A DNA stretch of 60,069 nt from an uncultured Methanosarcinales archaeon (GCA_964527395.1 CAZGQD010000007.1:8654-68722), one strand, 5' to 3'; shown: positions 1 to 48,104, counted from the stretch's first letter. Made by a program: numbers and translations. The notes: generated from the letters alone by a model not told the origin.

Positions 1-48
1 TATGAATGGATATGCTCAATTAGCAAGTTTATGATTTTCTTCTCTGTT

Positions 49-64
49 GAGTTCGCATAATGTT
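49..64 (+). repeat. GAGTTCGCATAATGTT motif copy 1 (dif/XerC half-site-like)
   Basis: Identical 16-mer also at 1282-1297, 1817-1832 and 15268-15283. This copy overlaps the ATG of ORF 60..554. Confidence 0.85.
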
Positions 65-554
65 GTTGATTGTTTTTATTGTTGCAGTTGTAGGTTTAGT
101 TATGATGTTCACAGGTGGTTCTTCTAGTGGAGTTTCAGATTCTAGCGATGATGGAGCAATTGCAGGAATGGCGGTAGCAGGAGGATATTCTGGAGCAAAA
201 GGTCCTGGTGCTAGTTATTATGCATCAAATGCAGGCACTGAGGCTTCTGAATCTAGTGATGATGAAGATCTATGTTTAGATGATTGTCTTGGAGTTGCTT
301 CTGCTGCAAGAGACGAATGTTATAGTTATGCAAATGCATTGGTAGATGAATGTCAAGAGATGGTAAATGATCTTGAATCGGCTGGAATGGAGAAAGAAGC
401 AGAAGAAACTGCAGAAAATTGTAATGATAGAGTAGATGATTGGAAAGCAAATTGTGATGCCAAATATAGCAGTAATTTAGACAATTGTTGGTCTAAATGC
501 ATCACTAATGAGGATGAAGGTGACACTGGTTGGCTTGATTGGTTAATTGAATAG
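60..554 (+). CDS. Membrane-anchored acidic Cys-rich protein, possibly 5'-truncated
   Basis: N-terminal hydrophobic stretch and eight Cys with mirror spacing 3-10-10-22-10-10-3. An in-frame TGA at 48-50 prevents upstream extension. Confidence 0.75.
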   Translation: MLLIVFIVAVVGLVMMFTGGSSSGVSDSSDDGAIAGMAVAGGYSGAKGPGASYYASNAGTEASESSDDEDLCLDDCLGVASAARDECYSYANALVDECQEMVNDLESAGMEKEAEETAENCNDRVDDWKANCDAKYSSNLDNCWSKCITNEDEGDTGWLDWLIE

Positions 555-600: not shown

Positions 601-1221
601 ATGAATATGAAAAAGAAAGTTACTTTTGTTCTTCTTGCTTTGTTAGTTTTTTTGTTTTTAGTGTCTTGTCAGGAAGGAATCGTGAATATTGATGAAGAAA
701 GTATTGATTCTGGAGAAACAGTTGATATGGGAACAGAAGTGGGAGCAGTTGATTCTCAAGTTGTTGTTGATGAAGAAATAGAACCAGTTGCAGAGCCTGT
801 AGAAGAAGATGAATGTACTGTTAATTCTGATTGTGGTGACTATAAACTTTGCTTAGAAGGTGTTTGTGGGACAATTAATGATGTATATGATACACACAGT
901 ACATGTGATTCAATGTGTAACTTTAATAATGTGCTTGTAAAAACAAGTGATGGTGACGAATTTACCTTGTCTCGAGGCCAAGGAAGTTACACTGGGGCAG
1001 GTTCAATTGAATGGAAATTGCTTTCTAGTGCAGAGTATTGTCTTGGAGAAGGTGCTACACCAGTTGCAATTGAGTTAACAATGAAAAATTATGGTGAAGT
1101 TGTGCAGGAAGAAGTTATTATCTTAAATCTGGGTGAAGAAAGTAAAGTAATTACTCACCCACAAATTGAAAGAATTCAGTTTACACTTGTTGTAGAAAGC
1201 TATGATGAAACTTGTTCTTAA
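601..1221 (+). CDS. Putative lipoprotein with Cys-rich repeat
   Basis: Basic N-terminus, hydrophobic core, LVSC lipobox-like site, CTVNSDCGDYKLCLEGVC motif, acidic linker. Confidence 0.7.
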   Translation: MNMKKKVTFVLLALLVFLFLVSCQEGIVNIDEESIDSGETVDMGTEVGAVDSQVVVDEEIEPVAEPVEEDECTVNSDCGDYKLCLEGVCGTINDVYDTHSTCDSMCNFNNVLVKTSDGDEFTLSRGQGSYTGAGSIEWKLLSSAEYCLGEGATPVAIELTMKNYGEVVQEEVIILNLGEESKVITHPQIERIQFTLVVESYDETCS

Positions 1222-1975: not shown

Positions 1976-3283
1976 ATGTTTAAAGAGATAATATATGACC
2001 AAAATGAACATTGGAAGGGTGAATTATATCAAACTGGTGTTAAAAGAAGCCAATTTGAGAAGATAGAACGTTTGTTAAAGCTAGATCAAGTGATAACCAT
2101 AACAGGAGTTAGAAGATGTGGTAAGTCTTTTTTGCTTAAGCAAACAATAAATCATTTAATTTCAAAAGGTGTGAGTGCAAGTAATATTTTCTTTTTGAAT
2201 TTAGAAGTTCCTGATTTGGTTTTGACTAAGAGAAATTCGAAAACTTTGCAAGATCTGTTTGATATTTATTTGAAAGAGAAAGACCCTGATGGACAGATTT
2301 ATGTGTTTTTAGATGAGATACAGTTTTTTGAAGAGTGGGAAGTATTTATTAAATCAGAATACGACAAAAGAAAAGGGAAAATTAAATTTTTTATTACAGG
2401 ATCTAATAGAATGTTGCTATCAAATAAATTTGCAACCATGCTTTCTGGAAGAGTTATAGAATTAGTTTTGTTTCCTTTTAGTTTTAAGGAATTTTTGTTT
2501 AGTGAATCATATTTTGATTTTTCTAAACAAGGGTTAGTTCATAATAGAAACAAGTTATTAAAGCACTTTGAAGATTATATGATATTAGGTGGTTTTCCTG
2601 AATTGTTGAAAATCGATGAAGATGATGAGAAATCAAAGCAAGAATTGTTGCAAAGTTACTTTAAAACTATTGTGTTTAAGGATTTGGTGCCCATTTTTAA
2701 TATCAGAGATACAAAATCCATAGAAAGTGTTGGTTTGTACTTAAATTCAAATGTGTCTAAACTTTTTAGTTATAAGAAAATTGCAAATGTGATTGGAATA
2801 AATGACAAAACAGTTAAAGAATTTTTTGAAGCTTTAGAAAAAGTGTTCTTGTTTTTTGAACTAAGAAAATATGATCGTTCACTGCAAAAACAGTTAAGGA
2901 ATGCAAAAAAAGCATATTCTATTGATACTGGACTTGCTTGGAACTTAGGTTTTCGCTTCTCCTCTGATGTTACTAGATTGCTTGAGAATTTAGTGTTTAT
3001 TGAACTAAAAAGAAGAGAATTAGATGTTTATTATCATGCTTGTAAAGGAGAGTGTGATTTTGTTATTAAAGAAGGTTTGGAAATTAGTTCTGCTATTCAA
3101 GTTTGTTACAAAATTACTCCTGAGAACAAAAAAAGAGAGATAAATGGGCTTGTTGAAGCTATGAAAAGATATGAATTGAAAGAAGGCTTGATTTTGACCT
3201 TAAATGAAGAAGAAGAGACCGTAGTTAAAGATGATTTGAAGATTAATGTTTTGCCTGTTTGGAAATGGTTATTGGTTGATTGA
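1976..3283 (+). CDS. AAA+ ATPase, AAA_14/DUF4143 type
   Basis: Walker A GVRRCGKS, Walker B VFLDEIQ, ITGS, LSGR, GGFPE, DTGL, LLEN and C-terminal ECDFV...AIQV. Confidence 0.9.
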   Translation: MFKEIIYDQNEHWKGELYQTGVKRSQFEKIERLLKLDQVITITGVRRCGKSFLLKQTINHLISKGVSASNIFFLNLEVPDLVLTKRNSKTLQDLFDIYLKEKDPDGQIYVFLDEIQFFEEWEVFIKSEYDKRKGKIKFFITGSNRMLLSNKFATMLSGRVIELVLFPFSFKEFLFSESYFDFSKQGLVHNRNKLLKHFEDYMILGGFPELLKIDEDDEKSKQELLQSYFKTIVFKDLVPIFNIRDTKSIESVGLYLNSNVSKLFSYKKIANVIGINDKTVKEFFEALEKVFLFFELRKYDRSLQKQLRNAKKAYSIDTGLAWNLGFRFSSDVTRLLENLVFIELKRRELDVYYHACKGECDFVIKEGLEISSAIQVCYKITPENKKREINGLVEAMKRYELKEGLILTLNEEEETVVKDDLKINVLPVWKWLLVD

Positions 3284-5785: not shown

Positions 5786-7417
5786 TTAAAATTCTAATGG
5801 GAATTGCATACATAATCTTTTTACTTGAGCTGCAATCTGCTGGATCTCTGGATCTAACCTTGTTGCTTCGTTGAATTCTTTGAACTTCAGATCTTTATAT
5901 TTTTCACTGATGTTCATTACTTGGTTGATCCATTGAGCAATACTTTGCATTTCTTGTTCTTTCATGCCCCTTGTAGTAATCCAAGGAGTTCCTAGTCTAA
6001 GGCCGCTTGGGTTCATAGGACTCCTTGTTTCTTGTGGAATAGTATTATAATTTGAAACAATGCCAGCATGGTCAAGAGCTCTTGCGAATTTTCTTCCTAT
6101 AACTGCTTTGTTTGTAAGGTCAATTAAGATTAAATGTTTGTCTGTTCCGCCAGAGACAATGTTAAAATTGAACTTTTGTAGTTCGTTGGCAAGGAATTGA
6201 GCGTTTTTTACTGTTTGAAATTGATCTTGTTTGAATTTATCTGTCATTGCTTCTTTTAAACCAGCTGCAATACCAGCAATACAATGATTGAATGGGCCAC
6301 CTAACAAGCCTGGAAGTACTGCTTTATTGATCTTCTTGATTAATTCTTCTTTGGCAAAGATTAGTGCTCCTCTCCCAGATCTTAATGTCTTATGAGTTGT
6401 TAGAGTTACAACGTCAGCAATACCTACTGGGCTTGGATTTGCTCCTGCACTGATTAACCCTGCTTCATGTGCGATGTCTGCTAGGTAGTAAGCTCCTACT
6501 TTGTTCGCGATTTGTCTCATTCTCTTGTAATTAATGTTTCTAGGATAAGCTGTACCGCCAGTAATGATTAGTTTTGGCTTTTGTAGAGTGGCAATTCTTT
6601 CAATTTCATCATAATCGAATTGTTTTGTTTCAGGATTGGTTTTGTATGAGACACTATTGAAAATCTTTGAGGAGATGTTAACTTTGTTTGATCCACCGTA
6701 GTAAACTGACTTTTTTGGATCTGCTGGTTTTTTAGGAGTGTAAGACCAACCGTGTGAAAGATGTCCTCCGTCTGGAAGATACATACCCATAATATAATCT
6801 CCTATTTGTAATAAGGCTAAGTACACTGCTAAGTTTGCTGTTGAGCCCGATAATGCTTGAACGTTTACAGACCAGTCTTCTGGTAGATTGAAAGCTTGTT
6901 TTGCTCTATTTATTGCTAATTGTTCAATTTGATCAATGTATTTGTTACCCTCATAGTATCTTCTTTTTACATTACCTTCAGAATATTTGTGAGCTAAGAT
7001 TGATCCTGTTGCTTGTCTTACAGCTGTTGAGAAGAAGTTTTCACTTGGGATCATAGAAAGTTTGTTTTGTTGTCTTTGTTTTTCTTGCTGGATAAGGTTG
7101 TATAGTTCAGGATCTTGAGTTTCTAGATTGTTTTTATTTGTGTTTTGGATACTTGAATTTGTTTGGATATTTATTGATTCTTGTTGTTTTTGATTTACTT
7201 GATTAAATTCGCTACTTTGGATTGCTGTGGCAGTTTGAGCCATTTGACTTACTACTTGTTCTTGATTAATTTGTGTTGGTTGAGAAACTTGTGCTTGCAT
7301 ATGTATCTGATTAGTTTGAAATTGTTGTGCTTGATTAGAATGTGGATTATGTTCTTGATTTAGCTGAGTAGCTGCATCTTTTTGAGCTTGTGCACTTTTG
7401 ATTGCTTCTTGGAACAT
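5786..7417 (-). CDS. glyA: Serine hydroxymethyltransferase with Gln-rich N-terminal extension
   Basis: IPSEN, KYSEG...RYYEG, VQALSGSTAN, GGHLSHG, ADIAH, TTHKTLR (PLP Lys), SGLRLGTP. Confidence 0.95.
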   Translation of the reverse strand: MFQEAIKSAQAQKDAATQLNQEHNPHSNQAQQFQTNQIHMQAQVSQPTQINQEQVVSQMAQTATAIQSSEFNQVNQKQQESINIQTNSSIQNTNKNNLETQDPELYNLIQQEKQRQQNKLSMIPSENFFSTAVRQATGSILAHKYSEGNVKRRYYEGNKYIDQIEQLAINRAKQAFNLPEDWSVNVQALSGSTANLAVYLALLQIGDYIMGMYLPDGGHLSHGWSYTPKKPADPKKSVYYGGSNKVNISSKIFNSVSYKTNPETKQFDYDEIERIATLQKPKLIITGGTAYPRNINYKRMRQIANKVGAYYLADIAHEAGLISAGANPSPVGIADVVTLTTHKTLRSGRGALIFAKEELIKKINKAVLPGLLGGPFNHCIAGIAAGLKEAMTDKFKQDQFQTVKNAQFLANELQKFNFNIVSGGTDKHLILIDLTNKAVIGRKFARALDHAGIVSNYNTIPQETRSPMNPSGLRLGTPWITTRGMKEQEMQSIAQWINQVMNISEKYKDLKFKEFNEATRLDPEIQQIAAQVKRLCMQFPLEF

Positions 7418-9875: not shown

Positions 9876-10436
9876 ATGGGTGAAAAAGTGCAAAAAACTA
9901 GAATTTCTGCGGAACAGATACAATTTGAAAGGCTTAAGGTTGACCACGATGTTTCTAATTTTGAGTCTTATGAGCAAGAATTAGTTGATTTTCTGCAAGA
10001 AGATGCTTTAGATAACCAAAAAAAGCAAATTTCGGTGACCTACTTGTGTTTTTTGAGAACAGATGAATTGATTGGTTATGTAACTTTATCAGATGATAGA
10101 ATTAAGTTAGAAGGAGGGCTTAGACAAAGATTTTTGGGAAAAGGAATCCCTTATAGAGCATTGCCTGCTTTGAAAATTGGTCGTTTATGTGTTGATAATA
10201 AGTTTATTAGAAGAGGAGTTGGGACTTTGATCATGGCCTTTGCAACAAATGTGGCCGAAAACATATTTTCAGACTATTCAGGCTGTAGGTTTGTTGTTTT
10301 GGATGCAAAAAGAAATGAAGAAAATGATGTTGTTAGGTTTTACCAGAGAATTGGGTTCAAAATTATTAGAGAAAAGAAAAAAGGCAATAGTCCAATGTAT
10401 TTAGACTTAGTTAATAACCTTAAATTTAGTATTTAG
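9876..10436 (+). CDS. GNAT acetyltransferase, TacT/AtaT-like toxin type (copy 1)
   Basis: LPALKIGRLCVD...RRGVG acetyl-CoA motif, GCRFVVLDAK, FYQRIGF. Confidence 0.85.
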   Translation: MGEKVQKTRISAEQIQFERLKVDHDVSNFESYEQELVDFLQEDALDNQKKQISVTYLCFLRTDELIGYVTLSDDRIKLEGGLRQRFLGKGIPYRALPALKIGRLCVDNKFIRRGVGTLIMAFATNVAENIFSDYSGCRFVVLDAKRNEENDVVRFYQRIGFKIIREKKKGNSPMYLDLVNNLKFSI

Positions 10437-10559
10437 GGCTTTTTTAATGAAAGCAATACGTCTTGGATCAGGATTAGTCTCCTCTTTTCTCATTTTTTCT
10501 ATGAATTTGTATGCTTCTTTGCCCCTTAAGGTAGGAGTTGCTTCAATTGGTTTTGCCAT
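10407..10559 (-). CDS. 50-aa putative antitoxin/partner peptide (copy 1), absent from the ORF track
   Basis: Manual translation MAKPIEATPTLRGKEAYKFIEKMRKEETNPDPRRIAFIKKALNTKFKVIN. 36/50 identical to copy 2, with a conserved upstream promoter-like sequence. Confidence 0.8.
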   Translation of the reverse strand: MAKPIEATPTLRGKEAYKFIEKMRKEETNPDPRRIAFIKKALNTKFKVIN

Positions 10560-10610
10560 AGTTTGTTTATAGGAAGTGTTTTTTAATAAAAGTTTCTATT
10601 GAGTAACTTT

Positions 10611-10658
10611 CTCTTGAAGATAGTAAGTTCAAACTCACCTTTGTCTTGCGTTGATTCT
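10611..10658 (-). pseudogene. Duplicated 3' fragment of folA (ESTQDKGEFELTIFK)
   Basis: 30-bp block 10629-10658 identical to 11509-11538 inside folA; the adjacent differences are synonymous. Confidence 0.9.
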
Positions 10659-10711: not shown

Positions 10712-11281
10712 GTGACTTACAAGACTATTTTGATGGTCGAAGAAAGAACAAAAGTGAAGATCACTGTTGATCAAATACAAATTGAAGTGATCAATGAAGA
10801 TTATGATGTAACTAGGTTTAGGTCTTATGAAAATGATTTAGCTAAGTTCTTAGTTGAAGATGCACTTGATAATCAAAAACAGTTCCTATCTTTGACATTT
10901 TTGTGGTTTTTTGAAGGCAGATTGGTGTCTTATATTACCATATTAAATGATAAAATCAATCTTAAAGGAGATTTGAAAGATTTCTTTAAGCAAAAAGGCA
11001 TCCATTATGGCTCTCTTCCAGCTTTGAAAATTGGTCGTTTGTGTGTAGATGACAGATTTGTTAGAAGAGGACTTGGTAAATTAATGATTCAGTCAGCCAT
11101 TTCTATTGCTAATAAGCTAAATACTAGTTGGTCTGGGTGTAGATTCATTACGTTAGATGCAAAAAGAAACGATAATCCTAGTAAAGATCCACTCAATTTC
11201 TATAAAAAACAAGGATTTAAGGTTTTGAAAGAGAAGAATGGAAGCACTACACCAATGTTTCTTGACTTGAAACTTATTTAG
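10712..11281 (+). CDS. GNAT acetyltransferase, TacT/AtaT-like toxin type (copy 2; ATG start may be 10733)
   Basis: LPALKIGRLCVDDRFVRRGLG, GCRFITLDAK, FYKKQGF. Paralog of 9876..10436. Confidence 0.85.
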   Translation: MTYKTILMVEERTKVKITVDQIQIEVINEDYDVTRFRSYENDLAKFLVEDALDNQKQFLSLTFLWFFEGRLVSYITILNDKINLKGDLKDFFKQKGIHYGSLPALKIGRLCVDDRFVRRGLGKLMIQSAISIANKLNTSWSGCRFITLDAKRNDNPSKDPLNFYKKQGFKVLKEKNGSTTPMFLDLKLI

Positions 11282-11426
11282 GAAAATTGAACTTAATGTT
11301 TAAAGCTTCTCTGATAAATGCAATACGTCTTGGATCAGGGTTAGTTTCTTCTTTAATCATGTTTTCTATGAAACGTTTAGCATCTTCTCCTTCTAATGTA
11401 GGTGTTGCTTCAATTGGTTTTGCCAT
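11274..11426 (-). CDS. 50-aa putative antitoxin/partner peptide (copy 2), absent from the ORF track
   Basis: Manual translation MAKPIEATPTLEGEDAKRFIENMIKEETNPDPRRIAFIREALNIKFNFPK. Confidence 0.8.
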   Translation of the reverse strand: MAKPIEATPTLEGEDAKRFIENMIKEETNPDPRRIAFIREALNIKFNFPK

Positions 11427-11462
11427 AATTTGTTTATATGGTGTGTTTTTTAATAAATATTT

Positions 11463-12011
11463 CTATTGATTTGTTATTATTGTGTCTTTCTTTTTGAAAA
11501 TAGTCAGCTCAAACTCACCTTTGTCTTGCGTTGATTCTTCTTTCCAAGCGTTCCAATTAATTTCTGGGAACTTAGTGTTACCTTCATATTCATGCTTTAT
11601 AAAGGAGATGTGCATTGTGTCTGCGTATTGTTCTAAAAGTTTGTATATTTGAGCTCCACCAATGATGAAGATGTCTTTTTCGTGGGTTTTGGCTAGTTGG
11701 ATGGCTTCTTCTGGTGAGTTTGCTATCTCTAATTTCGAGCATAGCTCTCTTGACTTGGCTCTTTCATCGCCAAGTATTGCTTCATTTGTGTCTGCTTGAT
11801 TCCAGCTTCTGGAGAGAATGATATTTACTCTGTTTGGGAGAGGTCTGAACTTTTTTGGGATTGATTCGTAGGTTTTTCTACCCATGATAACTACACTATT
11901 GTTTGTTAAAAGTTTGAAGTTCTTTAAGTCTGCTGGGATGTTCCAAGGAAGTTTGTTGTCTTTACCAATGATTTTGTGGGTTTTAGTCATAGCAGCTATA
12001 ATTGAGATCAT
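11463..12011 (-). CDS. folA: Dihydrofolate reductase with internal insertion
   Basis: IIAAM...IIGKDNKLPW..PADL..FK, VIMGRKTYESI, RPLPNRVNIILSR, IFIIGGAQIY, GNTKFP. Confidence 0.95.
   Translation of the reverse strand: MISIIAAMTKTHKIIGKDNKLPWNIPADLKNFKLLTNNSVVIMGRKTYESIPKKFRPLPNRVNIILSRSWNQADTNEAILGDERAKSRELCSKLEIANSPEEAIQLAKTHEKDIFIIGGAQIYKLLEQYADTMHISFIKHEYEGNTKFPEINWNAWKEESTQDKGEFELTIFKKKDTIITNQ
11731..11801. repeat. Palindromic element copy lying in frame inside folA
   Basis: TTCGAGCATAGCTCTCT..ACTTGGC-loop-GCCAAGTAT matches the intergenic element at 53102-53143; TCGAGCA pairs with TGCTTGA at 11793-11799. Confidence 0.7.
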
Positions 12012-15216: not shown

Positions 15217-15267
15217 TTTAGTTTTGAAAAGATCGATTAATTTGAGGCGTATTTGTGTTTCTTCTTG

Positions 15268-15283
15268 GAGTTCGCATAATGTT
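15268..15283 (+). repeat. GAGTTCGCATAATGTT motif copy 4
   Basis: Exact match, 51 nt after the folC stop, at the left edge of the lipoprotein/PP2C islet. Confidence 0.85.
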
Positions 15284-15384
15284 TGTGGTTGTGTCTGTTT
15301 CATATATGATTAACCTACAGATAGTAGTGTTTTTCGTGATTTTAACTGGTTATATTTATAAAAAAGAGCCATATTTTGAGCTTA

Positions 15385-16206
15385 ATGAGAGATTCATCAA
15401 GATTGGTTGGATTAGCTGGGTTTTTAGGAGCAGGATTAACTAGTTCTGGCTGTGGTTCAGATTGGATTATAACTAGTGCGCCGCTTTTTGCAGATAAGAC
15501 TATTGTAGAAGAATGTGCATCACTTAGTAGAATTTCTGATTACGAAGATATTTGTGCTGTGTTCGCAGATGGAGAGCAAGTAGCAGAAGATAATTGTAAT
15601 TATGGGTTTTTAGCTTCGCAAAATAGAGTTGACCAGTTCATTGATAGAGAGTTAGCTGAAGGTGAATATGAAGTTTTCCCTATTATAAGTGAAACTGAAA
15701 TTTTGACAGGCACAGGGTATTCTTCAGTAGAAGGAAGTCTAGTCAGTTTAGCAGAAAATCAAAGTGTAGATTTGGTTAAGAAAAATGTAGTAATTGGACA
15801 GCATTATGAGGAAACTTTTTTGACTTGTTCTTATGCTTGGCTAGAAGGAGAAAATGTATGTGATGAAGGCCTATATTCAAGTTCTACAAAAATAGGAATG
15901 GGTGTTGAATATAATGGAGAAGAACTTCATGAAATTGTTGATGTTTTAAGTGGAATTGGGATTTCATTGAAAAGTAATGTATTATATGATGTAGAATGGG
16001 ATTGTTTTAGAATTTATGCTGGTGCTAACTTAGAAGTAGAAAATGATTCAGGAGAAACTACTTTTTCCAATACGAGAATAGGAGAATTTGATTCTTTAGA
16101 TGCTGCTGAAACATTAACAGTTGATTTTGTTGATAGTGTTCATGATTATCATGAATTATTTGATAGCTACGTTATTAGTGGTAGTGATACTGGAAATTAT
16201 GAATAA
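15385..16206 (+). CDS. Acidic Cys-rich lipoprotein, paralog 1
   Basis: Gly-rich signal ending SSGC; CASL, GYS-x5-LVSL, CSY-x4-G-x-N-x-C, Y-x-VE-x2-C shared with paralogs. Confidence 0.8.
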   Translation: MRDSSRLVGLAGFLGAGLTSSGCGSDWIITSAPLFADKTIVEECASLSRISDYEDICAVFADGEQVAEDNCNYGFLASQNRVDQFIDRELAEGEYEVFPIISETEILTGTGYSSVEGSLVSLAENQSVDLVKKNVVIGQHYEETFLTCSYAWLEGENVCDEGLYSSSTKIGMGVEYNGEELHEIVDVLSGIGISLKSNVLYDVEWDCFRIYAGANLEVENDSGETTFSNTRIGEFDSLDAAETLTVDFVDSVHDYHELFDSYVISGSDTGNYE

Positions 16207-16312
16207 AGTGGACAATATAGTAGTGGACTTGCTGCAGGAGAATTGAACAGAGTGTCTGTTTTTAACTTATATGAATGAAAATAACAATTGAATTTAGTGA
16301 GGAATTATAAAA

Positions 16313-17074
16313 ATGACAAATAGATTAGGATTAGTTGGATTATTAGGAGCAGGGTTAAGTAGTGGGTGTGTTCCGGAATATCGTGCAGTTCCACAAATGG
16401 GATCTGTTATGGTTACAGATGAAACTATTACTGATTGTGCTTCATTATTTTTGCTAGATGATGCTGGACTTTGTGACACTTTCATTGATGATAGTACTGC
16501 AAAAGGACTGTGTCTTAATAACTATGCTGCAGCTCAAGATGAAGCATTAGGATTATTAGAATTGGCAGATACTGCTGAAGGTAGCTTAGTAGGGAGTTTA
16601 GAAGGTGAAGGTAGTTTTTCAAGTTCTCTTGGATATTCGGCTGATCAAGAGGCATTAGTTAGTTTAGATCAAGCAGAAACTGTTGATACAATTGAAAGGT
16701 TTTTTACTGTTTTTCAGAATTCTTCTGATAGTCCGTTCTTTTCTTGTAGTTACATTAAAGCAGCAGGAGGAAATGCATGTGAAGATGCAGTGTATTTAGT
16801 CTCTGCATTTGCTGGGAATGAATTTGATTCAGAATTACCATTTGGTGAACAAGGAAATGTTAGGATTGATCTAACAAGACCTTTAAATTATGTTGTTGAA
16901 GAAGGATGTTATTCTGTTTTTGATGAAGCTATGCTAAATGTGAGCCCTTCTGTTGGAGAAGCTTTTATTGGGGCTACTGAAGGGAACTTAGACAATGCTT
17001 ATCTCTTAGATGCTGAAGCAAGAACAATTTCTGCTGTTGATTTTATCTTTGCAGCAGATGTGACTTATGATTAG
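16313..17074 (+). CDS. Acidic Cys-rich lipoprotein, paralog 2
   Basis: MTNRLGLVGLLGAGLSSGC signal and the same conserved motifs; GTGAGG ribosome site. Confidence 0.8.
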   Translation: MTNRLGLVGLLGAGLSSGCVPEYRAVPQMGSVMVTDETITDCASLFLLDDAGLCDTFIDDSTAKGLCLNNYAAAQDEALGLLELADTAEGSLVGSLEGEGSFSSSLGYSADQEALVSLDQAETVDTIERFFTVFQNSSDSPFFSCSYIKAAGGNACEDAVYLVSAFAGNEFDSELPFGEQGNVRIDLTRPLNYVVEEGCYSVFDEAMLNVSPSVGEAFIGATEGNLDNAYLLDAEARTISAVDFIFAADVTYD

Positions 17075-17138
17075 AATTGATTTTATTTTTTTATTTAATT
17101 AGCACATTGAAAAAAATTGAAAAAAGTGAGTGAATGAA

Positions 17139-17927
17139 ATGGGAAATAGATTTGGATTAAATGGAGTATTAAGTTTAGGAGTATTAAGCCTTGGAATTGG
17201 TAGTGGCTGTACTCCGCCATCTTGGTATCCTTTCCCTAAAAGTGATGATTACAATTTGAGTGAAGATGTTTATGAAGGTTGTGCTTCATTATATTCACAA
17301 GAAGATATTTCTGATTTATGTGAAGCTTTTTCTTTTGGAGATGAAAATTTGAATGCTTTATGTGTTGAAAATTATGAAAATGTTCAGGAGATTGGTTTAG
17401 AGTCTTTTGAGGGAATTATTGATGAAGTGCATGACTTAGCAGCAGGAGATGTTGAGAATACAGAAAGATTAACTACCACAACAGGATATTCTCTAGAAAG
17501 GGATGCTTTTATTAGCTTAGATGAAGGAGTTTCAGTTGGACTTAAAGAAAAGGCATTTGTTTTAAATGACAATGAATTTTTTGGTGGAACATATTTTGAT
17601 TGTAGATATATTTTGCTTGATGGTGACAATGTTTGTGATAACCCAAAATATTCTAGTTCTGTCCTGTTTAGCCATAACCTTCATGGAGATCAAAGTCTTG
17701 AAGGTTTTTTAAGTGGAAAAATTGAATTTGTTCGTAATATCCAATATGTTGTTGAAGAAGAATGTTTTGATGTTTTTTATGGAGCCGAATTGAATATTAA
17801 GAGAACAGGGATGGAGAGTTTTTCTGGCAATGCAAGTGTAGGTTATGAGAGCCTTTTATATGCAGAAACAGATTTAATAGATGCAGTTGATACAGCAACT
17901 GATGTGATCATGAATTATCAGTATTAA
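17139..17927 (+). CDS. Acidic Cys-rich lipoprotein, paralog 3
   Basis: MGNRFGLNGVLSLGVLSLGIGSGC signal and the same conserved motifs. Confidence 0.8.
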   Translation: MGNRFGLNGVLSLGVLSLGIGSGCTPPSWYPFPKSDDYNLSEDVYEGCASLYSQEDISDLCEAFSFGDENLNALCVENYENVQEIGLESFEGIIDEVHDLAAGDVENTERLTTTTGYSLERDAFISLDEGVSVGLKEKAFVLNDNEFFGGTYFDCRYILLDGDNVCDNPKYSSSVLFSHNLHGDQSLEGFLSGKIEFVRNIQYVVEEECFDVFYGAELNIKRTGMESFSGNASVGYESLLYAETDLIDAVDTATDVIMNYQY

Positions 17928-17957
17928 CTTATAAATAAACTACTTTTCTATTGAATT

Positions 17958-18980
17958 ATGCAAATTTCACCATATTTTTTAAAGGACAGATTAAGTTATG
18001 AATGTTTTAGTAGGTATCAGGTTGGTTCTACATTAGTTGAAATTGCAGCTGGTTCTTTAGTTCATATTGGAAGAGAAGAGATTTTGAATCGTGATTCATT
18101 TTCGTTTGGACCAGTTATGCGTTCTGGAGAAACAAAAGGCGTCATAACAGGTGCTTTTGATGGGATGGGAACTTATTTTGAATCATTTATTGTGGCGCAA
18201 ATGGCTGCTGAGATGCTTGTAGTTTATGCATGCGAGAGAGATCAAGAGTTTGATGCTAATGAATTTATTGAAGATTATTTTGAAGAAACTGTTCCAGATA
18301 GTGTTCATTCTAGAACAATGGTTGAAAGATTGAATATTTTGGCTAGAACTAATGAAGAAATTGGACTTGATGTGCTAGTTAAAGAACATATATCGCCTGT
18401 TTTGCATGCATATCGTGAAATTGTGCAAAAAGAGTGTGGAACTACAGCTGCCTTGCAATTGCATCGTGAAGCTTGCGTGGATTTATATTTTCAAGGAGAT
18501 ACATGTAATATTTGGCGTGAAGGAAGAGAATATTTCTGGGGAGGAGAACATACTGATGCTGCTGAGGTTAAGAGATTATCTGAATATGAGAATAAATTTC
18601 CTTTGGAAAGAAGAGATGAATTAATTGGTGTGAAGAAAAGAAATATTGTTTCATATGGACTTACTTATGTTTATCCTTTTTTAGATCACCTAGAGGTTTT
18701 AAATGTGTCTGAGGCAGATATAGTTATGTCAATGACAGATGGTTTTGAAAGACTGCGTGCAGCTAGAATAAAAGAAGTCATCTCTGAGTTGGATAGAAGA
18801 GAAAGACCATTGAATATTGTTAATTCCATAATTAGGGCTGCAGGACATACTAGAAATACAGACGATAAAACTATTGTTTTGGCTAGGCGTAGTGGTCCTT
18901 TAGTTCCCGAGATTCAAGTAGCTGAAAGTCAGGAAAATAGAGAAGGGTTTTTGTCTAATTTTAGGAATATTTTTAGATGA
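17958..18980 (+). CDS. PP2C/PPM-like phosphatase, paralog 1
   Basis: NRD, AFDGMG, CGTT, FQGD, MTDG, DDKT correspond to the PPM metal-binding motifs. Confidence 0.75.
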   Translation: MQISPYFLKDRLSYECFSRYQVGSTLVEIAAGSLVHIGREEILNRDSFSFGPVMRSGETKGVITGAFDGMGTYFESFIVAQMAAEMLVVYACERDQEFDANEFIEDYFEETVPDSVHSRTMVERLNILARTNEEIGLDVLVKEHISPVLHAYREIVQKECGTTAALQLHREACVDLYFQGDTCNIWREGREYFWGGEHTDAAEVKRLSEYENKFPLERRDELIGVKKRNIVSYGLTYVYPFLDHLEVLNVSEADIVMSMTDGFERLRAARIKEVISELDRRERPLNIVNSIIRAAGHTRNTDDKTIVLARRSGPLVPEIQVAESQENREGFLSNFRNIFR

Positions 18981-19128
18981 AGGATACTGTAAAAAAGGGT
19001 TTTTTGATCATTTTGGTGGTTTTTTAGGTCGATTAATTGTTTGATAGTGATCAATTGATTGTTTCTTTAATTTGCTACACCTATTGTAGTAGATCTTGTT
19101 TATACTAAGTTTTGTTTTAGTTTGTTTT

Positions 19129-20271
19129 ATGCCAATAACAACAACAAACAATGTCGGAAGACGAAATTATGGGCTTTTAGGAAGCTATGAAGTGGGTTTG
19201 ACAACAATTGATATTGCAGCAAGTTCAGCTGTGAACACAAAATATGGCGATGATCTCAATCGCGATGCATTATATTTTGGACCAGTAATACGTTCTGGAG
19301 AAACAGTTGGAGTAATTGGAGGAGTTTTTGATGGGATTGGAGCAGCTGTAGAATCTGCGAGTGCCTCTAGAATGGCAGCCGCTATGCTAGGAGTATACGC
19401 AAGTGAACGTGGTTCAAGTAATGCTATACGTTTTTTGTGTCCATATTTTAAGAAATTTAGTCCGCGTGATGCTCATATTCAAACTATGATGATGAAGGTT
19501 GATGAACTTGGACGTACTACTAATGATGTTTCGCTTGGTGATTTATCAAGAGAATTTATTCGACCAGTGTTGGTTGCATATAAAGCATTGACTGAAGCTA
19601 CAACAGGAAAGAGGAGTAGTTGTGGAACAACTTCGGCATTACAGTTTCATACTGAAAATGACACATCATTATATTTTCAAGGTGATGCTGGGAATATCTG
19701 GCGAAGGAAAGGAGATTACTTGTGGGGAGGTGAACATTCATTAGTTGCACTTCAACAAGGATTATTTCCAAAGCAACAAGAGTTACCTTTAGGTTTAAGA
19801 GACAAATTAATGTTTTTACCAGGCAGAAATAGAATTTTTTCTAGTGCAGGAGGATTTCATCCATATACTGAAAGTCTTGAAGCAGTAACAGTAGCTGAAA
19901 CTGATTTAATTATGTCAATGACAGATGGTTTGGAGAAAATTGGTAGTGGCAATATGAAACGAATGGCAGATGAACTTGGAGATGGAGTGACAGTTAACAA
20001 TTTAGCTGAAAAATTAATGGAAGCTGCAAGATTAAGTGGAAATACAGATGATAAAACTGTTTTAGTTGCACAAAGACGCGTAAGATCTGCTCCTGCTTCA
20101 AAGACGTTGGCAGCAGCATTACGTCCTACTCCAAAATATGTTCATAGTAGAAATGGGTCTGGAGTTTTCACAGGTATGATTGCAAATGCAGGAAGAGTTG
20201 GTGGCCCAAGAGGTGTTAAACCTGTTGGAGTTTCCCGTCCTACAGATTCTGGTGGCTATATCGGAGTTTAG
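19129..20271 (+). CDS. PP2C/PPM-like phosphatase, paralog 2, with low-complexity C-terminal tail
   Basis: NRD, VFDGIG, CGTT, FQGD, MTDG, DDKT; shares FGPVxRSGET and GGEH with paralog 1. Confidence 0.75.
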   Translation: MPITTTNNVGRRNYGLLGSYEVGLTTIDIAASSAVNTKYGDDLNRDALYFGPVIRSGETVGVIGGVFDGIGAAVESASASRMAAAMLGVYASERGSSNAIRFLCPYFKKFSPRDAHIQTMMMKVDELGRTTNDVSLGDLSREFIRPVLVAYKALTEATTGKRSSCGTTSALQFHTENDTSLYFQGDAGNIWRRKGDYLWGGEHSLVALQQGLFPKQQELPLGLRDKLMFLPGRNRIFSSAGGFHPYTESLEAVTVAETDLIMSMTDGLEKIGSGNMKRMADELGDGVTVNNLAEKLMEAARLSGNTDDKTVLVAQRRVRSAPASKTLAAALRPTPKYVHSRNGSGVFTGMIANAGRVGGPRGVKPVGVSRPTDSGGYIGV

Positions 20272-33120: not shown

Positions 33121-34143
33121 TTAAGCAGCATCCCTTCTATTGAAGACATTGCCCATAAATTCATCATTTGACATATCCTTCAAGCTATCTGAAAGTTGAA
33201 CTGCTTCACCATACCTTGTGTTATCTCTCTCTTGGCAACGGATATTAAAGTGTGCAAATCTCCAGATAGAAATGACAGCAGCAGCATGGGAAGCGCCTAA
33301 ACGTAACAATTGTCTTTCTCTATCTTCTAGAGGTCTTACACTTTCATATCCTCTTACTAAGGCTTGTACTTTTTGATAATTTATCTCTCCATTATCTCTA
33401 CATGCACCAATTGCAGTTTGACCTATATCAAAGATATTTTTTCCATGGTAAGCACTTTCAAAGTCAATAATTCCAGAGATCTCATATTTGTCAAAAATTG
33501 CGTTATCTGCCCATAAATCACCATGAGTAATCCCATTTGGAAGCTCGTTTGGCAATGCCTCTTTGAAATACCTGTGTGCTTGATCTAACCATCCGATGAA
33601 TTTATGGTTAACACCTTCCAATTTTGGCCGATATGTCTCGTAGCCAAAAGGATGAATATCCCTTAGGAAACCAGGTACTTCAATTTGATGAAGTCTAGCC
33701 ATTGTTGCACCCAATTGTTCAAGGTTTTGTTGTGACAAATCTTCAATTGTTTGTCCTTCAAGGTATGATAAAACCATCAGTGGTTTCCCATCATATTCTA
33801 TCACTCTTTGACTTTGAGCTGTAACTGGTTTTTGGCACGGAAAGCCATTTTTGTATAAATGTTCTGTTAGTCTTACTACAGTATCAGCTTCAGTCATTGT
33901 TTGATCATCACAAATCCTTAAAACAAATCTGTTCCCTTGTGTCTTATATTTGGTGTCGACTGTTCCTGCTCTTGCTGTGATAATATAATTTGAGTTTCTT
34001 AAACCTTCTTTTACAGGTTTTGCTGATATTATATCCAAATCAAATCTTTTTGCAATTCTAATTATTTCTTCTAAACTTAGTCTTGTATGTACTGCCATGT
34101 GAAATCTTTGTTTGATTTTGTCGTTTAACATTTTCACTAACAT
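33121..34143 (-). CDS. APH/type II homoserine kinase-like phosphotransferase
   Basis: GLRNSNY, VLRI, HGDLWADN (Brenner motif), IIDF, FDIG. Confidence 0.85.
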   Translation of the reverse strand: MLVKMLNDKIKQRFHMAVHTRLSLEEIIRIAKRFDLDIISAKPVKEGLRNSNYIITARAGTVDTKYKTQGNRFVLRICDDQTMTEADTVVRLTEHLYKNGFPCQKPVTAQSQRVIEYDGKPLMVLSYLEGQTIEDLSQQNLEQLGATMARLHQIEVPGFLRDIHPFGYETYRPKLEGVNHKFIGWLDQAHRYFKEALPNELPNGITHGDLWADNAIFDKYEISGIIDFESAYHGKNIFDIGQTAIGACRDNGEINYQKVQALVRGYESVRPLEDRERQLLRLGASHAAAVISIWRFAHFNIRCQERDNTRYGEAVQLSDSLKDMSNDEFMGNVFNRRDAA

Positions 34144-40022: not shown

Positions 40023-41594
40023 TTATCTTTTATTTTTTTTAAATGGTTTAGAACTGTTTCTTGGTTTACTGTTTGATTTGGATCTGCTGTTGCCTTTACC
40101 ATAAGTTTTCTTTTTGTCAGATCGATTTCCTCTTTTGAAAGGTTTTGAATTAGTTCTTGATTTGCTGTTTGATCTGGATCTTCTTTTATTATTAGAACTT
40201 TTATTCTCATAATCTTTAAGAGTTTTTTTCTGTCTTCTAAAGCCATTGTCTTTGAATGGCTTGCCTCTTGACTTCTCTTTAATACCAGTCATAGATACTC
40301 TTTCTGACCTGTTATCTGATCTGTTATCTCTTTTGAAAGGTTTGCTTTTGGAATTTGACCTAGACTTAGTATCTGACTTATTATTGAACTTGTTATCAGA
40401 TCTATCATCTCTTTTGAATGGTTTGCCTCTTGATTTCTCTTTGCTGCTGTAGTTAGATCTGCTATTGGTTTTATTGTCTCTAAAATGTTTAGATCTGTTG
40501 TCATTTGATCTATCTTTACTAAAGGTCTTTGAAGGTCTTTGTTTTGATCCTGACCTTGAATTTTGTCTTGAATTTGTCTTTGATTTAATCATTTTTTTAG
40601 TAGATCCAGTAGTTTCTTTAAATTTATTGGATTCTTTAGATCCTTTAGATTCTGTATTATTTTCTTTCTTGTTTTGCTTTTCTTTACTCACTCTTTTACC
40701 TTTAGCAATCTCTTTGTCAACTTTGATAGCTTTTTTACCCCTAGGGAAAACTACCCGTACTGGCTTTTTTCCATCACTAACTTTAGGGCTTCTCTTGAAA
40801 CCTCGCTCTTTTGTAGATTTAGTTCTGTAATGCTTTGAGTCTTTCTTTTCTCTTCTGAAAGTTTTTTTCTTTTTTTCATGCTCATTGATTTGTGAAAGTG
40901 ATATTTTTGATGTTTCTTGGAAGATCTTTTCCTTCTCGTACTCTTTTAAATGTCGCCATTTACCTGCTTTTAGGCTTCTTAATTCTAATCTACCAACTTT
41001 GATCCTTTCTAAGCTAGTTACCATGAAACCTATCTTTCGCATCATACGTCTAATGATTCTGTTCTTTCCCTCATGGATTGTGATTCTAATTACACTGTGT
41101 TTTACTTTGCTTACTTTTGCTGGTGAAGTTAGACCATCATCTAATTTTATACCAGTTTCAATCTTTCTTATTTGTTCTTTACTGATTTTACCATTTAGTT
41201 TAACTAAGTAAGTTTTGTCTATTTCTTTACTTGGATGAGCAATACTGTTAGCAAAATCACCATCATTTGTTAAAAGAAGAAGTCCGCTGGTGTTTAGATC
41301 TAGTCTACCTATTGGAAAGATTCTTTCAGAAATATTGATGCAATCCATAACAGTAGAATATTTTTGGTCCCTAAGTGCTGTAACGCAATTCATTGGTTTA
41401 TTAAGCATAATATAGATTTTTTTTTCTTGTTTGATGATTTTACCATCTACTTCGATCTTGTCTTTAATACCCGCCTTATCGCCAATATTGATAGTTTTGT
41501 TATTGACTTTGACCTTACCTTTCATGATAAGTTCTTCAGCTCTTCTTCTTGAGCAAAAGCCTGAGTTTGAAAGGATTTTCTGAACACGTTCCAT
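40023..41594 (-). CDS. RsuA/RluB-type pseudouridine synthase with long basic repetitive tail
   Basis: S4 domain (RVQKILSNSGFCSRRRAEELI), LNKP, PIGRLDLNTSGLLLLTNDG, IHEGKNRIIRRM. Confidence 0.9.
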   Translation of the reverse strand: MERVQKILSNSGFCSRRRAEELIMKGKVKVNNKTINIGDKAGIKDKIEVDGKIIKQEKKIYIMLNKPMNCVTALRDQKYSTVMDCINISERIFPIGRLDLNTSGLLLLTNDGDFANSIAHPSKEIDKTYLVKLNGKISKEQIRKIETGIKLDDGLTSPAKVSKVKHSVIRITIHEGKNRIIRRMMRKIGFMVTSLERIKVGRLELRSLKAGKWRHLKEYEKEKIFQETSKISLSQINEHEKKKKTFRREKKDSKHYRTKSTKERGFKRSPKVSDGKKPVRVVFPRGKKAIKVDKEIAKGKRVSKEKQNKKENNTESKGSKESNKFKETTGSTKKMIKSKTNSRQNSRSGSKQRPSKTFSKDRSNDNRSKHFRDNKTNSRSNYSSKEKSRGKPFKRDDRSDNKFNNKSDTKSRSNSKSKPFKRDNRSDNRSERVSMTGIKEKSRGKPFKDNGFRRQKKTLKDYENKSSNNKRRSRSNSKSRTNSKPFKRGNRSDKKKTYGKGNSRSKSNSKPRNSSKPFKKNKR

Positions 41595-44794: not shown

Positions 44795-44845
44795 TTTTTT
44801 TCATCTCTTTTTTTTGTTATTATAATATTATTAAAATTCTGTTTA

Positions 44846-46330: not shown

Positions 46331-46331
46331 C

Positions 46332-47774: not shown

Positions 47775-47835
47775 TGAATTAAAATGGCTTTATAAAAGTT
47801 AGTTTTTGGGGAACACAACAAGAGAAAAAAGAAAA

Positions 47836-48051: not shown

Positions 48052-48104
48052 AATGTGTATTTTTGAATAGCTGTTTTTAAAGGTTTATGTTTAGAATTGG
48101 TGTT

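What the first reader, a model, noticed from the sequence alone, without database searches (positions are those of the whole stretch)
15268..20271. Islet of three lipoproteins and two atypical PP2C phosphatases, with no kinase
Seen: five co-directional genes start right after a dif-like motif copy. Both phosphatases retain PPM metal motifs (NRD, FDG.G, GTT, GD, TDG, DDKT). They also share non-canonical features: FGPVxRSGET, a long helical insert between FDG and GTT, GGEH, and DDKT in place of DN.T. Known: PP2C genes in prokaryotic TerY-P and related defence or signalling loci normally sit beside a Ser/Thr kinase and a vWA protein; neither is here. Inference: a new module, either a surface-receptor/phosphatase signalling unit or host-directed effectors of an episymbiont. 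Linkage of the two gene types may be coincidental.
Basis: partly seen in the sequence, partly recalled or inferred. Interest (0 to 1): 0.62.

Follow-up and report, generated by a model that had tools for sequence, protein, structure and literature searches.

The report
Divergent PP2C phosphatases beside orphan lipoproteins
An uncultured marine, probably DPANN-type, archaeon carries three fast-evolving surface lipoprotein genes next to two very divergent PP2C-type phosphatase genes, all real and intact, but nothing shows that they work together as a new signalling or defence module.

Summary
Five co-directional intact genes lie at 15385-20271. Three are paralogous acidic, Cys-rich proteins with a lipobox. 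Two are paralogous cytoplasmic proteins, 41% identical.

The two are PP2C/PPM-fold by remote homology: hhalign gives 81-85% probability (P about 1e-5), and all five metal-binding Asp residues align. They fall below Pfam thresholds and lack the canonical phosphate-binding Arg and general-acid His.

Both families are near-orphans. HMMER against 1.84 billion representatives found only the genes themselves and two short Tara fragments. One fragment keeps the lipoprotein-to-phosphatase adjacency.

The host is probably an archaeon. TATA boxes sit at -28 to -30 of start codons across the window. LP1, PPa and PPb each have one, so the phosphatases probably have their own promoters.

No protein kinase, vWA protein, STAS protein or defence hit is present. 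Orphan PP2C genes are common, so the missing kinase is not diagnostic.

The "dif-like" motif has four same-strand copies and only one conserved arm. It is not dif.

Verdict: a new divergent PPM subfamily next to a lineage-specific lipoprotein array. Functional coupling is unproven. Interest is moderate to low.

The parts
15256..15284 (+). Copy 4 of a 29-nt repeated upstream motif (TTCTCnGTTGAGTTCGCATAATGTTT; invariant core GAGTTCGCATAATGTT). The other copies are at 37-65, 1270-1298 and 1805-1833.
   Evidence: four + strand copies against 0 expected in shuffles. Only one arm is conserved and the sequences downstream diverge. This is not a dif site. It is possibly a shared regulatory element.
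15355..15365 (+). TATA-like box (TTTATAAAAAA) about 30 nt upstream of the LP1 ATG
   Evidence: TATA-like hexamers peak at -28 to -30 of start codons across the window (9-11 of 47 genes).
15385..16206 (+). LP1: putative lipoprotein, 273 aa, acidic (pI about 4), 7 Cys
   Evidence: lipobox FLGAGLTSSGC with Cys23. Paralog of LP2 and LP3. No Pfam, NCBIfam or PDB hit.
16313..17074 (+). LP2: putative lipoprotein, 253 aa
   Evidence: lipobox GLLGAGLSSGC with Cys19. An SD-like GTGAGG lies 8 nt upstream and there is no -30 TATA, so it is probably co-transcribed with LP1.
17139..17927 (+). LP3: putative lipoprotein, 262 aa
   Evidence: lipobox GVLSLGIGSGC with Cys24. An SD-like GTGAGTG lies upstream.
17928..17940 (+). 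TATA-like box (CTTATAAATAAA) at -29 of the PPa ATG
   Evidence: The same arrangement (ATTTATAAAT about 25 nt before the ATG) is kept upstream of the PPa ortholog fragment in L006.
17958..18980 (+). PPa: divergent PP2C/PPM-fold protein, 340 aa, no signal peptide
   Evidence: hhalign to bona fide PP2Cs. D46, D68-G69, D181, D261-G262 and D302 align with PstP D25, D38-G39, D118, D191-G192 and D229.
19099..19109 (+). TATA-like box (GTTTATACTAA) at -30 of the PPb ATG. It is preceded by T-runs after the PPa stop (18990-19030).
19129..20271 (+). PPb: divergent PP2C/PPM-fold protein, 380 aa, with a basic Gly/Pro/Arg-rich C-terminal tail (pI 9.2)
   Evidence: sub-threshold hits to PP2C_2 (E=0.02, N-terminal half), SpoIIE (E=0.05, C-terminal half) and NCBIfam Stp1_PP2C_phos (E=4e-5).

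Best explanation
The region holds two adjacent, lineage-specific tandem gene families in an uncultured marine archaeon, probably DPANN-like.

(1) LP1-LP3 are fast-evolving, acidic proteins, probably disulfide-bonded (six conserved Cys). They would be exported by Sec and anchored to the membrane through a lipobox cysteine, presumably by the archaeal AliA/AliB route. They are most likely transcribed as one unit from a leaderless promoter upstream of LP1.

(2) PPa and PPb are cytoplasmic members of a very divergent branch of the PPM/PP2C superfamily. They keep the binuclear (and third) metal site, so they most likely hydrolyse phospho-Ser/Thr (possibly Tyr) on proteins phosphorylated by kinases encoded elsewhere in the genome. 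Each is transcribed from its own promoter.

The active site is remodelled. The canonical phosphate-binding Arg is acidic, the Glu before the first Asp is an invariant Arg, the general-acid His is Tyr or Ala, and DNxT is DDKT.

Shown: the genes, their paralogy, the lipobox, the PP2C homology and residue mapping, the promoter layout, the narrow distribution, and one conserved adjacency. Inferred: lipidation, catalytic activity, substrates, and any functional link between the two families.
For: - Genes and paralogy.
- Lipobox rule met, acidic, Cys-rich. Lipobox proteins are prevalent in DPANN (PMC12462473).
- PP2C homology by sequence. All best Pfam and NCBIfam hits of PPb are PP2C models and they are collinear. 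The top PDB profile hit is Stp1.
- PP2C homology by profile. hhalign of the family against 18 bona fide PP2Cs gives 81-85% probability, P 1.2e-5 to 6e-6. At low MAC threshold it covers query 25-310 against template 2-235. The score is 46.5 against 14.8 +/- 3.0 (maximum 26.7) for 100 column-shuffled templates.
- Motif alignment. Unsupervised MAFFT aligns all catalytic motifs.
- Structure. The AF2 model (pTM 0.66) hits only PP2C structures: Stp1, PstP, SpoIIE, PPM1A/B and HAB1, with 109 hits at E<1e-3.
- Selection and integrity. dN/dS is 0.19-0.36 for PPa against the Tara fragments. The locus is unchanged at 53x.
- Adjacency. It is kept in L006: an LP-family C-terminus (E=4e-13) lies 60 nt upstream of a PPa ortholog that is 72% identical.
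- Archaeal host and promoter layout. TATA peak at -28 to -30; archaeal-type TIM, class I aldolase/ADH synthase, TrmB and HTH_10.
Against: - No experimental or RNA evidence. Metatranscriptomes from the same studies hold nothing.
- Neither PP protein reaches a curated family threshold, and PPa alone hits nothing.
- The useful AF2 model was made from an alignment seeded with true PP2Cs, so its fold is partly circular. The unseeded model was useless at pLDDT 35.
- Loss of the canonical Arg and His could mean low activity, a different substrate, or a pseudo-enzyme.
- The lipobox is non-canonical at -3 (S or G rather than L/V/I) and the h-regions are weakly hydrophobic.
- The archaeal assignment is indirect, because the window has no rRNA, tRNA or ribosomal protein gene.
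- Conserved adjacency rests on a single 594-bp contig.
Confidence: 0.6

Rival explanations
1. One reading: the lipoproteins and phosphatases form one functional unit. This would be a surface sensor or receptor set coupled to cytoplasmic PP2C output, a new kinase-less signalling module.
For: - The genes are tightly packed and co-directional.
- The adjacency is kept in a relative whose synonymous sites are saturated.
- Both families are tandemly duplicated and restricted to the same narrow lineage.
- Only a 30-nt gap without a T-run separates LP3 from PPa.
Against: - Lipid-anchored proteins have no transmembrane or cytoplasmic part to signal through, and no transducer gene is present.
- PPa and PPb have their own -29/-30 TATA boxes, and there are T-runs after LP2 and PPa.
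- The LPs evolve far faster than PPa: 22-35% against 72% identity in the same relative.
- There is only one independent instance of the adjacency.
- No homologs elsewhere allow a co-occurrence test.
Confidence: 0.15
2. PPa and PPb have the PP2C fold but are not protein Ser/Thr phosphatases. They would be pseudo-phosphatases or scaffolds, or hydrolases acting on a non-protein phospho-substrate.
For: - The phosphate-binding Arg (PstP R20) is Glu or Asp.
- The general-acid His (PstP H43) is Tyr or Ala.
- The NED Glu is an invariant Arg, and DN is DD.
- The flap-equivalent region 194-246 is unalignable and of low confidence.
- The family is too divergent for HMMER to link to any of the many PP2Cs.
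Against: All five metal-binding Asp residues plus GTT and DG are invariant across both paralogs and in the fragments where covered. That conservation is not expected for a dead enzyme. Purifying selection acts on PPa.
Confidence: 0.2
3. The phosphatases, the lipoproteins, or both are host-directed effectors or adhesins of an episymbiont.
For: - The lineage-specific, tandemly duplicated, fast-evolving acidic surface proteins fit a host-contact role.
- The host looks like a small-genome, low-GC, orphan-rich archaeon.
Against: - PPa and PPb have no signal peptide or TM segment.
- No secretion system is nearby.
- The episymbiotic lifestyle is not established by anything in the window.
- For the LPs, an adhesin role is possible but untested.
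Confidence: 0.07
4. The region is a defence or stress islet related to the TerY-P triad or another PP2C-containing defence system, inserted at a Xer/dif-like site.
For: PP2C proteins occur in TerY-P triads (established knowledge). A repeated motif resembling the XerC arm of dif (9 of 11 bases) precedes the islet.
Against: - No vWA/TerY protein, kinase, recombinase or tRNA.
- No PADLOC or PHROG hit.
- No viral relative.
- GC content is like the flanks.
- No variant lacking the islet appears in the metagenome contigs.
- The motif has four same-orientation copies and no second arm.
Confidence: 0.03

Closest known systems
Bacterial PPM/PP2C Ser/Thr phosphatases of the Stp1/PstP/tPphA type (Pfam PF13672 PP2C_2, PF00481; NCBIfam NF033484)
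   Same: - Collinear motifs, with all metal-binding Asp residues aligned: PstP D25, D38, D118, D191, D229.
- GTT and DG motifs are present.
- Single-domain cytoplasmic protein.
- These are the best profile, PDB and Foldseek matches.
   Different: - Scores are below every curated threshold.
- R20 becomes E or D, E24 becomes R, H43 becomes Y or A, and DN becomes DD.
- There is a helical insert of about 33 residues between motif 2 and GTT.
- An extra FGPVxRSGET hairpin and a WGGEH motif are present.
- The flap region is divergent.
- There is no adjacent Hanks kinase or FHA protein.
SpoIIE/RsbU/RsbX-type PP2C phosphatases (Pfam PF07228) of partner-switching systems
   Same: They have the PP2C fold with reduced or altered N-terminal motifs and are not paired with Hanks kinases. 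The SpoIIE profile and the 5mqh/5ucg structures are among the best hits.
   Different: No STAS-domain substrate or anti-sigma kinase is nearby. The host is probably an archaeon, which has no sigma factors. The SpoIIE hit is far below threshold (14 bits against 25).
Thermoplasma volcanium PPM, the only archaeal PPM characterised as of the 2016 review PMC5007285
   Same: It is an archaeal, single-domain, metal-dependent PPM without a dedicated kinase neighbour (literature).
   Different: That enzyme has 218 residues and, according to the review, all the essential motifs. PPa and PPb are 340 and 380 residues with remodelled motifs. No detectable sequence link was found by HMMER.
Archaeal lipobox proteins (AliA/AliB-dependent lipoproteins; PROSITE PS51257)
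   Same: An N-terminal basic residue, a short h-region and [STAG][SG]GC with Cys at position 19-24. Such proteins are reported as prevalent in DPANN and Euryarchaeota.
   Different: The -3 position is S or G rather than L/V/I, and the h-region is Gly/Leu-rich. The mature domains have no known relatives. No AliA or AliB gene can be checked in this window.
TerY-P triad (vWA TerY + PP2C + Ser/Thr kinase)
   Same: Only that it contains a PP2C-fold protein.
   Different: No vWA protein and no kinase are present, the PP2C is duplicated, and there is no PADLOC hit.

Membership tests
PPM/PP2C phosphatase superfamily | Scores above the curated threshold of a PP2C family model (Pfam PF00481, PF13672 or PF07228; NCBIfam NF033484) | tested here: not met
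   PPb: PP2C_2 14.9 bits (cut-off 24), SpoIIE 14.0 (cut-off 25), Stp1_PP2C_phos 23.2 (cut-off 230). PPa: no hit at E<=1.
PPM/PP2C phosphatase superfamily | Significant profile-profile homology to bona fide PP2C catalytic domains over the whole domain | tested here: met
   hhalign gives 81-85% probability, P 1.2e-5 to 6e-6. The alignment is collinear, 25-310 against 2-235. The score is 46.5 against a shuffled-template mean of 14.8 (sd 3.0, maximum 26.7, n=100). The reversed template gives P=0.11.
PPM/PP2C phosphatase superfamily | Metal-coordinating aspartates (PstP D25, D38 with G39, D118, D191, D229; equivalent to PP2Calpha D38, D60, D239, D282) | tested here: met
   D46, D68-G69, D181, D261-G262 and D302 are conserved in PPa and PPb and lie in nearly invariant columns with 18 PP2Cs. 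They are also kept in fragments P0003 and P0004 where covered.
PPM/PP2C phosphatase superfamily | Phosphate-binding Arg (PstP R20 / PP2Calpha R33) and general-acid His (PstP H43 / PP2Calpha H62) | tested here: not met
   The aligned positions are E41 in PPa and D in PPb for the Arg, and Y73 in PPa and A in PPb for the His. An invariant R45 replaces the Glu of NED. The roles assigned to these residues come from established knowledge of the PP2Calpha and PstP structures.
PPM/PP2C phosphatase superfamily | PP2C alpha-beta-beta-alpha sandwich fold | tested here: inconclusive
   The unseeded AF2 model failed at pLDDT 35. The model from an alignment seeded with PP2Cs has pLDDT 60 and pTM 0.66 and matches only PP2C structures, with TM up to 0.63 on the target. 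That result is partly circular.
PPM/PP2C phosphatase superfamily | Mn2+/Mg2+-dependent phosphoprotein phosphatase activity | not testable with these tools
   This needs expression and a pNPP or phosphopeptide assay.
Prokaryotic membrane lipoproteins (lipobox, PROSITE PS51257) | Signal peptide with K or R in the first 7 residues, no charged residue in the 6 positions before [LIVMFWSTAG](2)-[LIVMFYSTAGCQ]-[AGS]-C, and Cys at position 15-35 | tested here: met
   LP1 Cys23, LP2 Cys19 and LP3 Cys24 all match. The stricter [LVI] at -3 is not met (S, S, G).
Prokaryotic membrane lipoproteins (lipobox, PROSITE PS51257) | Lipid modification of the Cys, and presence of the modifying enzymes (archaeal AliA/AliB or bacterial Lgt/LspA) | not testable with these tools
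   No such gene was seen in the 60-kb window, and the rest of the genome is not available.
TerY-P triad or other PP2C-containing defence loci | A vWA (TerY) protein and a Ser/Thr kinase adjacent to the PP2C | tested here: not met
   No Pkinase or vWA domain appears in the Pfam scans of the window ORFs or in the precomputed calls within 10 kb either side. There is no HRDxKxxN or G-loop motif in any ORF of 50 aa or more, and no PADLOC hit.
Partner-switching PP2C (RsbU, SpoIIE) | A STAS-domain substrate and an anti-sigma kinase in the locus | tested here: not met
   None is found among the neighbours.
dif / Xer recombination site | A single-copy 28-bp site with two inverted 11-bp arms around a 6-bp spacer | tested here: not met
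   There are four same-strand copies within 15.3 kb. Only the left part, GAGTTCGCATAATGTT, is conserved, and the sequence where the right arm would lie differs in every copy.

The most novel reading that the evidence does not exclude
PPa and PPb represent a previously unrecognised, archaeon-specific branch of the PP2C fold with a re-engineered active site: Arg next to the first metal Asp, no general-acid His, and DDKT. This branch would act in a conserved partnership with a rapidly diversifying set of lipid-anchored surface proteins. One possibility is that it resets phosphorylation of a surface-biogenesis or host-contact pathway in a DPANN episymbiont. That would make the islet a lineage-specific, kinase-independent surface/phosphatase module.
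Probability: 0.12. Interest if true: 0.6.

Novelty: new variant of a known kind. Interest (0 to 1): 0.3.

Why it matters
PPM phosphatases are rare and almost unstudied in archaea. Only one had been characterised as of the 2016 review PMC5007285. Protein phosphorylation in DPANN archaea is essentially unexplored.

A PP2C branch that keeps the metal site but swaps the phosphate-binding and general-acid residues would show how much change the PP2C catalytic mechanism tolerates. It may also point to a different substrate class.

The lipoprotein array adds candidates for DPANN cell-surface or host-contact proteins.

As it stands, the locus is an annotation gain: two hypothetical proteins become divergent PP2C-fold proteins and three become putative lipoproteins. 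It is not evidence of a new system.

Tried and rejected
1. Homolog searches. The word-index searches of 5.8 billion proteins returned only self hits plus a same-population fragment, for both PPa and the LP profile. The HMMER profile search of 1.84 billion representatives returned only PPb itself and two Tara fragments. GTDB genomes, JGI metagenome contigs (two pattern sets) and IMG/VR gave nothing. A broad gene-neighbourhood test was therefore impossible.

2. AF2 on the two-paralog alignment was useless, with pLDDT 35.

3. A single-sequence PDB search with PPb gave only spurious centrin hits. The LP profile against PDB gave nothing.

4. Expression. No RNA run holds the locus and no metatranscriptome contig maps to it.

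5. Sigma-70 promoter and intrinsic-terminator scans found no more than the shuffled controls. They were superseded by the archaeal TATA analysis.

6. Mobile-islet reading. There is no tRNA, no Rfam hit, no GC shift and no islet-less variant.

7. The apparent length variation of LP3 in contigs L002 and L003 is only scaffold gaps (runs of N) at a short repeat.

8. The APH-family ORF at 33121-34143 was considered as a cognate kinase. It resembles homoserine kinase (ThrB_alt) more than a protein kinase and lies 13 kb away.

9. The 'archaeon' MAG with the best transketolase match (60%) has 49% GC and is not syntenic, so it does not identify the lineage.

Full report
**Observation**

The finding's coordinates hold five co-directional, intact ORFs on the + strand. 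Their starts come from ATG codons and from independent gene calls on an identical metagenome contig:

| Gene | Coordinates | Length |
|---|---|---|
| LP1 | 15385-16206 | 273 aa |
| LP2 | 16313-17074 | 253 aa |
| LP3 | 17139-17927 | 262 aa |
| PPa | 17958-18980 | 340 aa |
| PPb | 19129-20271 | 380 aa |

LP1-3 are paralogs with 29-31% identity and 46 invariant columns. They share the N-terminal GLxGxLGAGLxSSGC and six further conserved Cys. All three meet the PROSITE PS51257 lipobox rule, with Cys at position 19-24. They are very acidic (pI about 4) and have no other hydrophobic segment.

PPa and PPb are paralogs, 41% identical over 307 residues, E=3e-74. Neither has a signal peptide or TM segment. 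No further paralog of either family lies in the window.

**Are the two proteins PP2C?**

Curated models do not call them. PPb scores 14.9 bits on PP2C_2 (N-terminal half), 14.0 on SpoIIE (C-terminal half) and 23.2 on NCBIfam Stp1_PP2C_phos (E=4e-5). All are below their cut-offs. PPa hits nothing. The weak hits are nonetheless all PP2C models and are collinear.

The family profile consists of the two paralogs plus two fragments. Its best PDB hit is Stp1 of S. agalactiae, with SMTDG aligned on SDGL and NTDDKT on GLDNIT.

I then built an independent PP2C alignment. It started from PstP and tPphA, whose sequences were verified against PDB 2cm1 and 2j82. It was extended to 18 bona fide PP2Cs.

- hhalign of the family against this alignment gives 81% probability and P=1.2e-5 over 161 columns.
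- With the template trimmed to the catalytic domain it gives 85% and P=6e-6.
- At low MAC threshold the alignment runs collinearly over query 25-310 and template 2-235.
- 100 column-shuffled templates score 14.8 +/- 3.0 (maximum 26.7) against 46.5 for the real one.

Unsupervised MAFFT of all 22 sequences places the catalytic motifs in shared, nearly invariant columns. D46, D68-G69, G161-T162-T163, G180-D181, D261-G262 and D302..T305 correspond to PstP D25, D38-G39, GTT, D118, D191-G192 and D229..T232.

AF2 on the two-sequence alignment failed with pLDDT 35. AF2 on the 22-sequence alignment gave pLDDT 60 and pTM 0.66. That model matches only PP2C structures: Stp1, PstP, SpoIIE, PPM1A/B, HAB1 and PppA, with 109 hits at E<1e-3. 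This last result is partly circular, because the alignment contained true PP2Cs.

I conclude that the PP2C fold and metal site are well supported.

The same alignment shows real departures from the canonical site:

- The phosphate-binding Arg (PstP R20) is Glu or Asp.
- The Glu of NED is an invariant Arg.
- The general-acid His of DGMGGH is Tyr or Ala.
- DN is DD.
- About 33 extra helical residues lie between motif 2 and GTT.
- The flap-equivalent region (194-246) is unalignable and of low confidence.

The functional roles of these residues come from established knowledge of PP2Calpha and PstP. Activity is therefore likely but not assured.

**Distribution**

Both families are close to orphans.

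- The word-index search of 5.8 billion proteins found only self hits for PPa. For the LP profile it found self plus a same-population fragment.
- A full HMMER profile search of 1.84 billion cluster representatives found only PPb itself and two fragments, P0003 (171 aa) and P0004 (83 aa). Both come from short contigs of one Tara Oceans assembly.
- Scans of GTDB genomes, JGI metagenome contigs and IMG/VR found nothing.
- Identical copies of the locus occur on several marine metagenome contigs. They reach 53x in one run, without variants.

The 594-bp Tara contig L006 is informative. It carries the C-terminus of an LP-family protein (E=4e-13 to the LP profile, both Cys kept). This is followed after 60 nt, including a TATA box, by the start of a PPa ortholog that is 72% identical. 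The LP-to-PP adjacency therefore survives in a relative whose synonymous sites are saturated (dS>1).

PPa is under purifying selection, with dN/dS 0.19-0.36. The neighbouring LP has diverged to 22-35% identity. The genes are not decaying, and the lipoproteins evolve much faster than the phosphatases.

**Host and transcription**

The window has no tRNA or rRNA. Several features indicate a low-GC archaeon with many bacterial-type metabolic genes, consistent with a marine DPANN-like lineage. This is an inference.

- An archaeal-type 219-aa TIM scores above the cut-off of NF003302.
- An archaeal class I aldolase/ADH-synthase-type protein, TrmB and HTH_10 regulators are present.
- TATA-like hexamers, typically CTTTATAAA, peak sharply at -28 to -30 of start codons. 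At each of those offsets, 9 to 11 of the 47 genes carry one. This is the signature of archaeal promoters driving leaderless mRNAs.

Lipobox proteins are reported as prevalent in DPANN (PMC12462473).

Within the islet, LP1, PPa and PPb each have such a box at -30, -29 and -30. LP2 and LP3 instead have SD-like GTGAGG and GTGAGTG just upstream. T-runs follow LP2, PPa and PPb. The likely units are LP1-LP2(-LP3), PPa and PPb. The phosphatases do not need the lipoprotein promoter. No RNA data exist to test this.

**Context and the 'no kinase' argument**

The flanks are folC upstream and, downstream on the opposite strand, two MacB/FtsX permeases and a CARDB protein.

No Hanks kinase, vWA, FHA or STAS protein appears in any scanned ORF or in the motif scan. 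The only kinase-fold ORF, at 33121-34143, resembles homoserine kinase. There are no PADLOC or PHROG hits.

However, PP2C genes without adjacent kinases are common, as in RsbU, RsbX, SpoIIE and many actinobacterial PPMs (established knowledge). Absence of a kinase is not evidence of a new module.

**The 'dif-like' motif**

The sequence at 15270-15288 belongs to a 29-nt element with an invariant 16-mer, GAGTTCGCATAATGTT. It has four + strand copies, at 37, 1270, 1805 and 15256, against 0 expected. The sequence downstream, where a second Xer arm would lie, differs in every copy. It has no match in IMG/VR.

It is not dif. It precedes accessory or secreted genes and may be a shared regulatory element. 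The genes it precedes are the Cys-rich acidic ORFs 60-554 and 601-1221, ORF 1312-1755, an AAA_14/DUF4143 ATPase, and LP1.

**Verdict**

On interpretation, the 'atypical PP2C' and 'lipoprotein' calls are supported. The 'new module', 'effector' and 'defence' readings are not.

The best description is two adjacent lineage-specific tandem families in a marine archaeon. One is a fast-evolving lipid-anchored surface protein array. The other is a highly divergent PPM/PP2C subfamily with a remodelled active site.

The adjacency is conserved at least once, but the phosphatases have independent promoters. The phosphatases rate as a new variant of a known kind. Interest is modest.

Noticed in passing
window 37-65, 1270-1298, 1805-1833, 15256-15284 (+): A 29-nt repeated element with an invariant 16-mer, GAGTTCGCATAATGTT. 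There are four same-strand copies, each upstream of accessory or secreted-protein genes. In copy 1 the ATG inside the motif starts ORF 60-554. It may be a shared regulatory site. It is not dif.
   Followed up: partly
whole window; e.g. 15355, 17929, 19099, and upstream of 40023-41594(-) and 50245-51480(+): TATA-like boxes, often CTTTATAAA, peak sharply at -28 to -30 of start codons (9-11 of 47 genes at each offset). This indicates archaeal promoters with leaderless mRNAs. Internal operon genes instead show GTGAGG-like SD sequences.
   Followed up: partly
window 60-554 and 601-1221 (+): Two more acidic (pI about 4), Cys-rich (8-9 Cys) exported orphan proteins. ORF 601-1221 has a canonical lipobox, LVSC. 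They are unrelated in sequence to LP1-3 but lie downstream of motif copy 1.
   Followed up: partly
window 10278-10658 vs 11132-11538: A segmental tandem duplication with about 860-bp spacing covers the 3' part of two paralogous GNAT acetyltransferase genes (9876-10436, 10712-11281) and the sequence after them. A 45-nt stretch that is 93% identical to the 3' end of the DHFR gene (11494-11538) recurs at 10614-10658, apparently as a remnant.
   Followed up: no
window 5786-7417 (-): Serine hydroxymethyltransferase with an N-terminal extension of about 95 residues, rich in Gln and Asn and of low complexity, ahead of the SHMT domain (Pfam match begins at residue 98).
   Followed up: no
window 54863-56782 (-) and neighbours 43841-59804: An oxidative and non-oxidative pentose-phosphate gene set: G6PD, a 6PGL-HAD fusion, 6PGDH, transketolase, transaldolase, RpiB and Rpe. 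The transketolase is bacterial-like. Its best GTDB hits are an unclassified archaeon MAG (60%, not syntenic, 49% GC), then Melainabacteria and CPR at about 50%. This suggests inter-domain transfer.
   Followed up: partly
window 1976-3283 (+) and 50245-51480 (+): Two AAA_14/DUF4143 (STAND-like) ATPase paralogs. The first lies downstream of motif copy 3.
   Followed up: no
window 40109-40436 within 40023-41594 (-): Three imperfect 49-nt direct repeats lie inside the long C-terminal extension of an RluF/RsuA-like pseudouridine synthase. That protein is 523 aa, whereas the catalytic part ends near residue 280.
   Followed up: no
window 20050-20271 (PPb C-terminus) and 18940-18980 (PPa C-terminus): PPb ends in a basic tail of about 65 residues, rich in Gly, Pro and Arg and probably disordered. 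PPa ends in a predicted amphipathic helix (GFLSNFRNIFR) that could be a membrane-association element. The tails are not conserved between the paralogs.
   Followed up: no
L002 about 1157-1167 and L003 about 1133-1142 (window 17147-17187): The apparent length differences of LP3 on two other contigs are scaffold gaps (runs of N). They fall at the short GVLSL-GVLSL repeat in the signal peptide and are not biological variation.
   Followed up: yes
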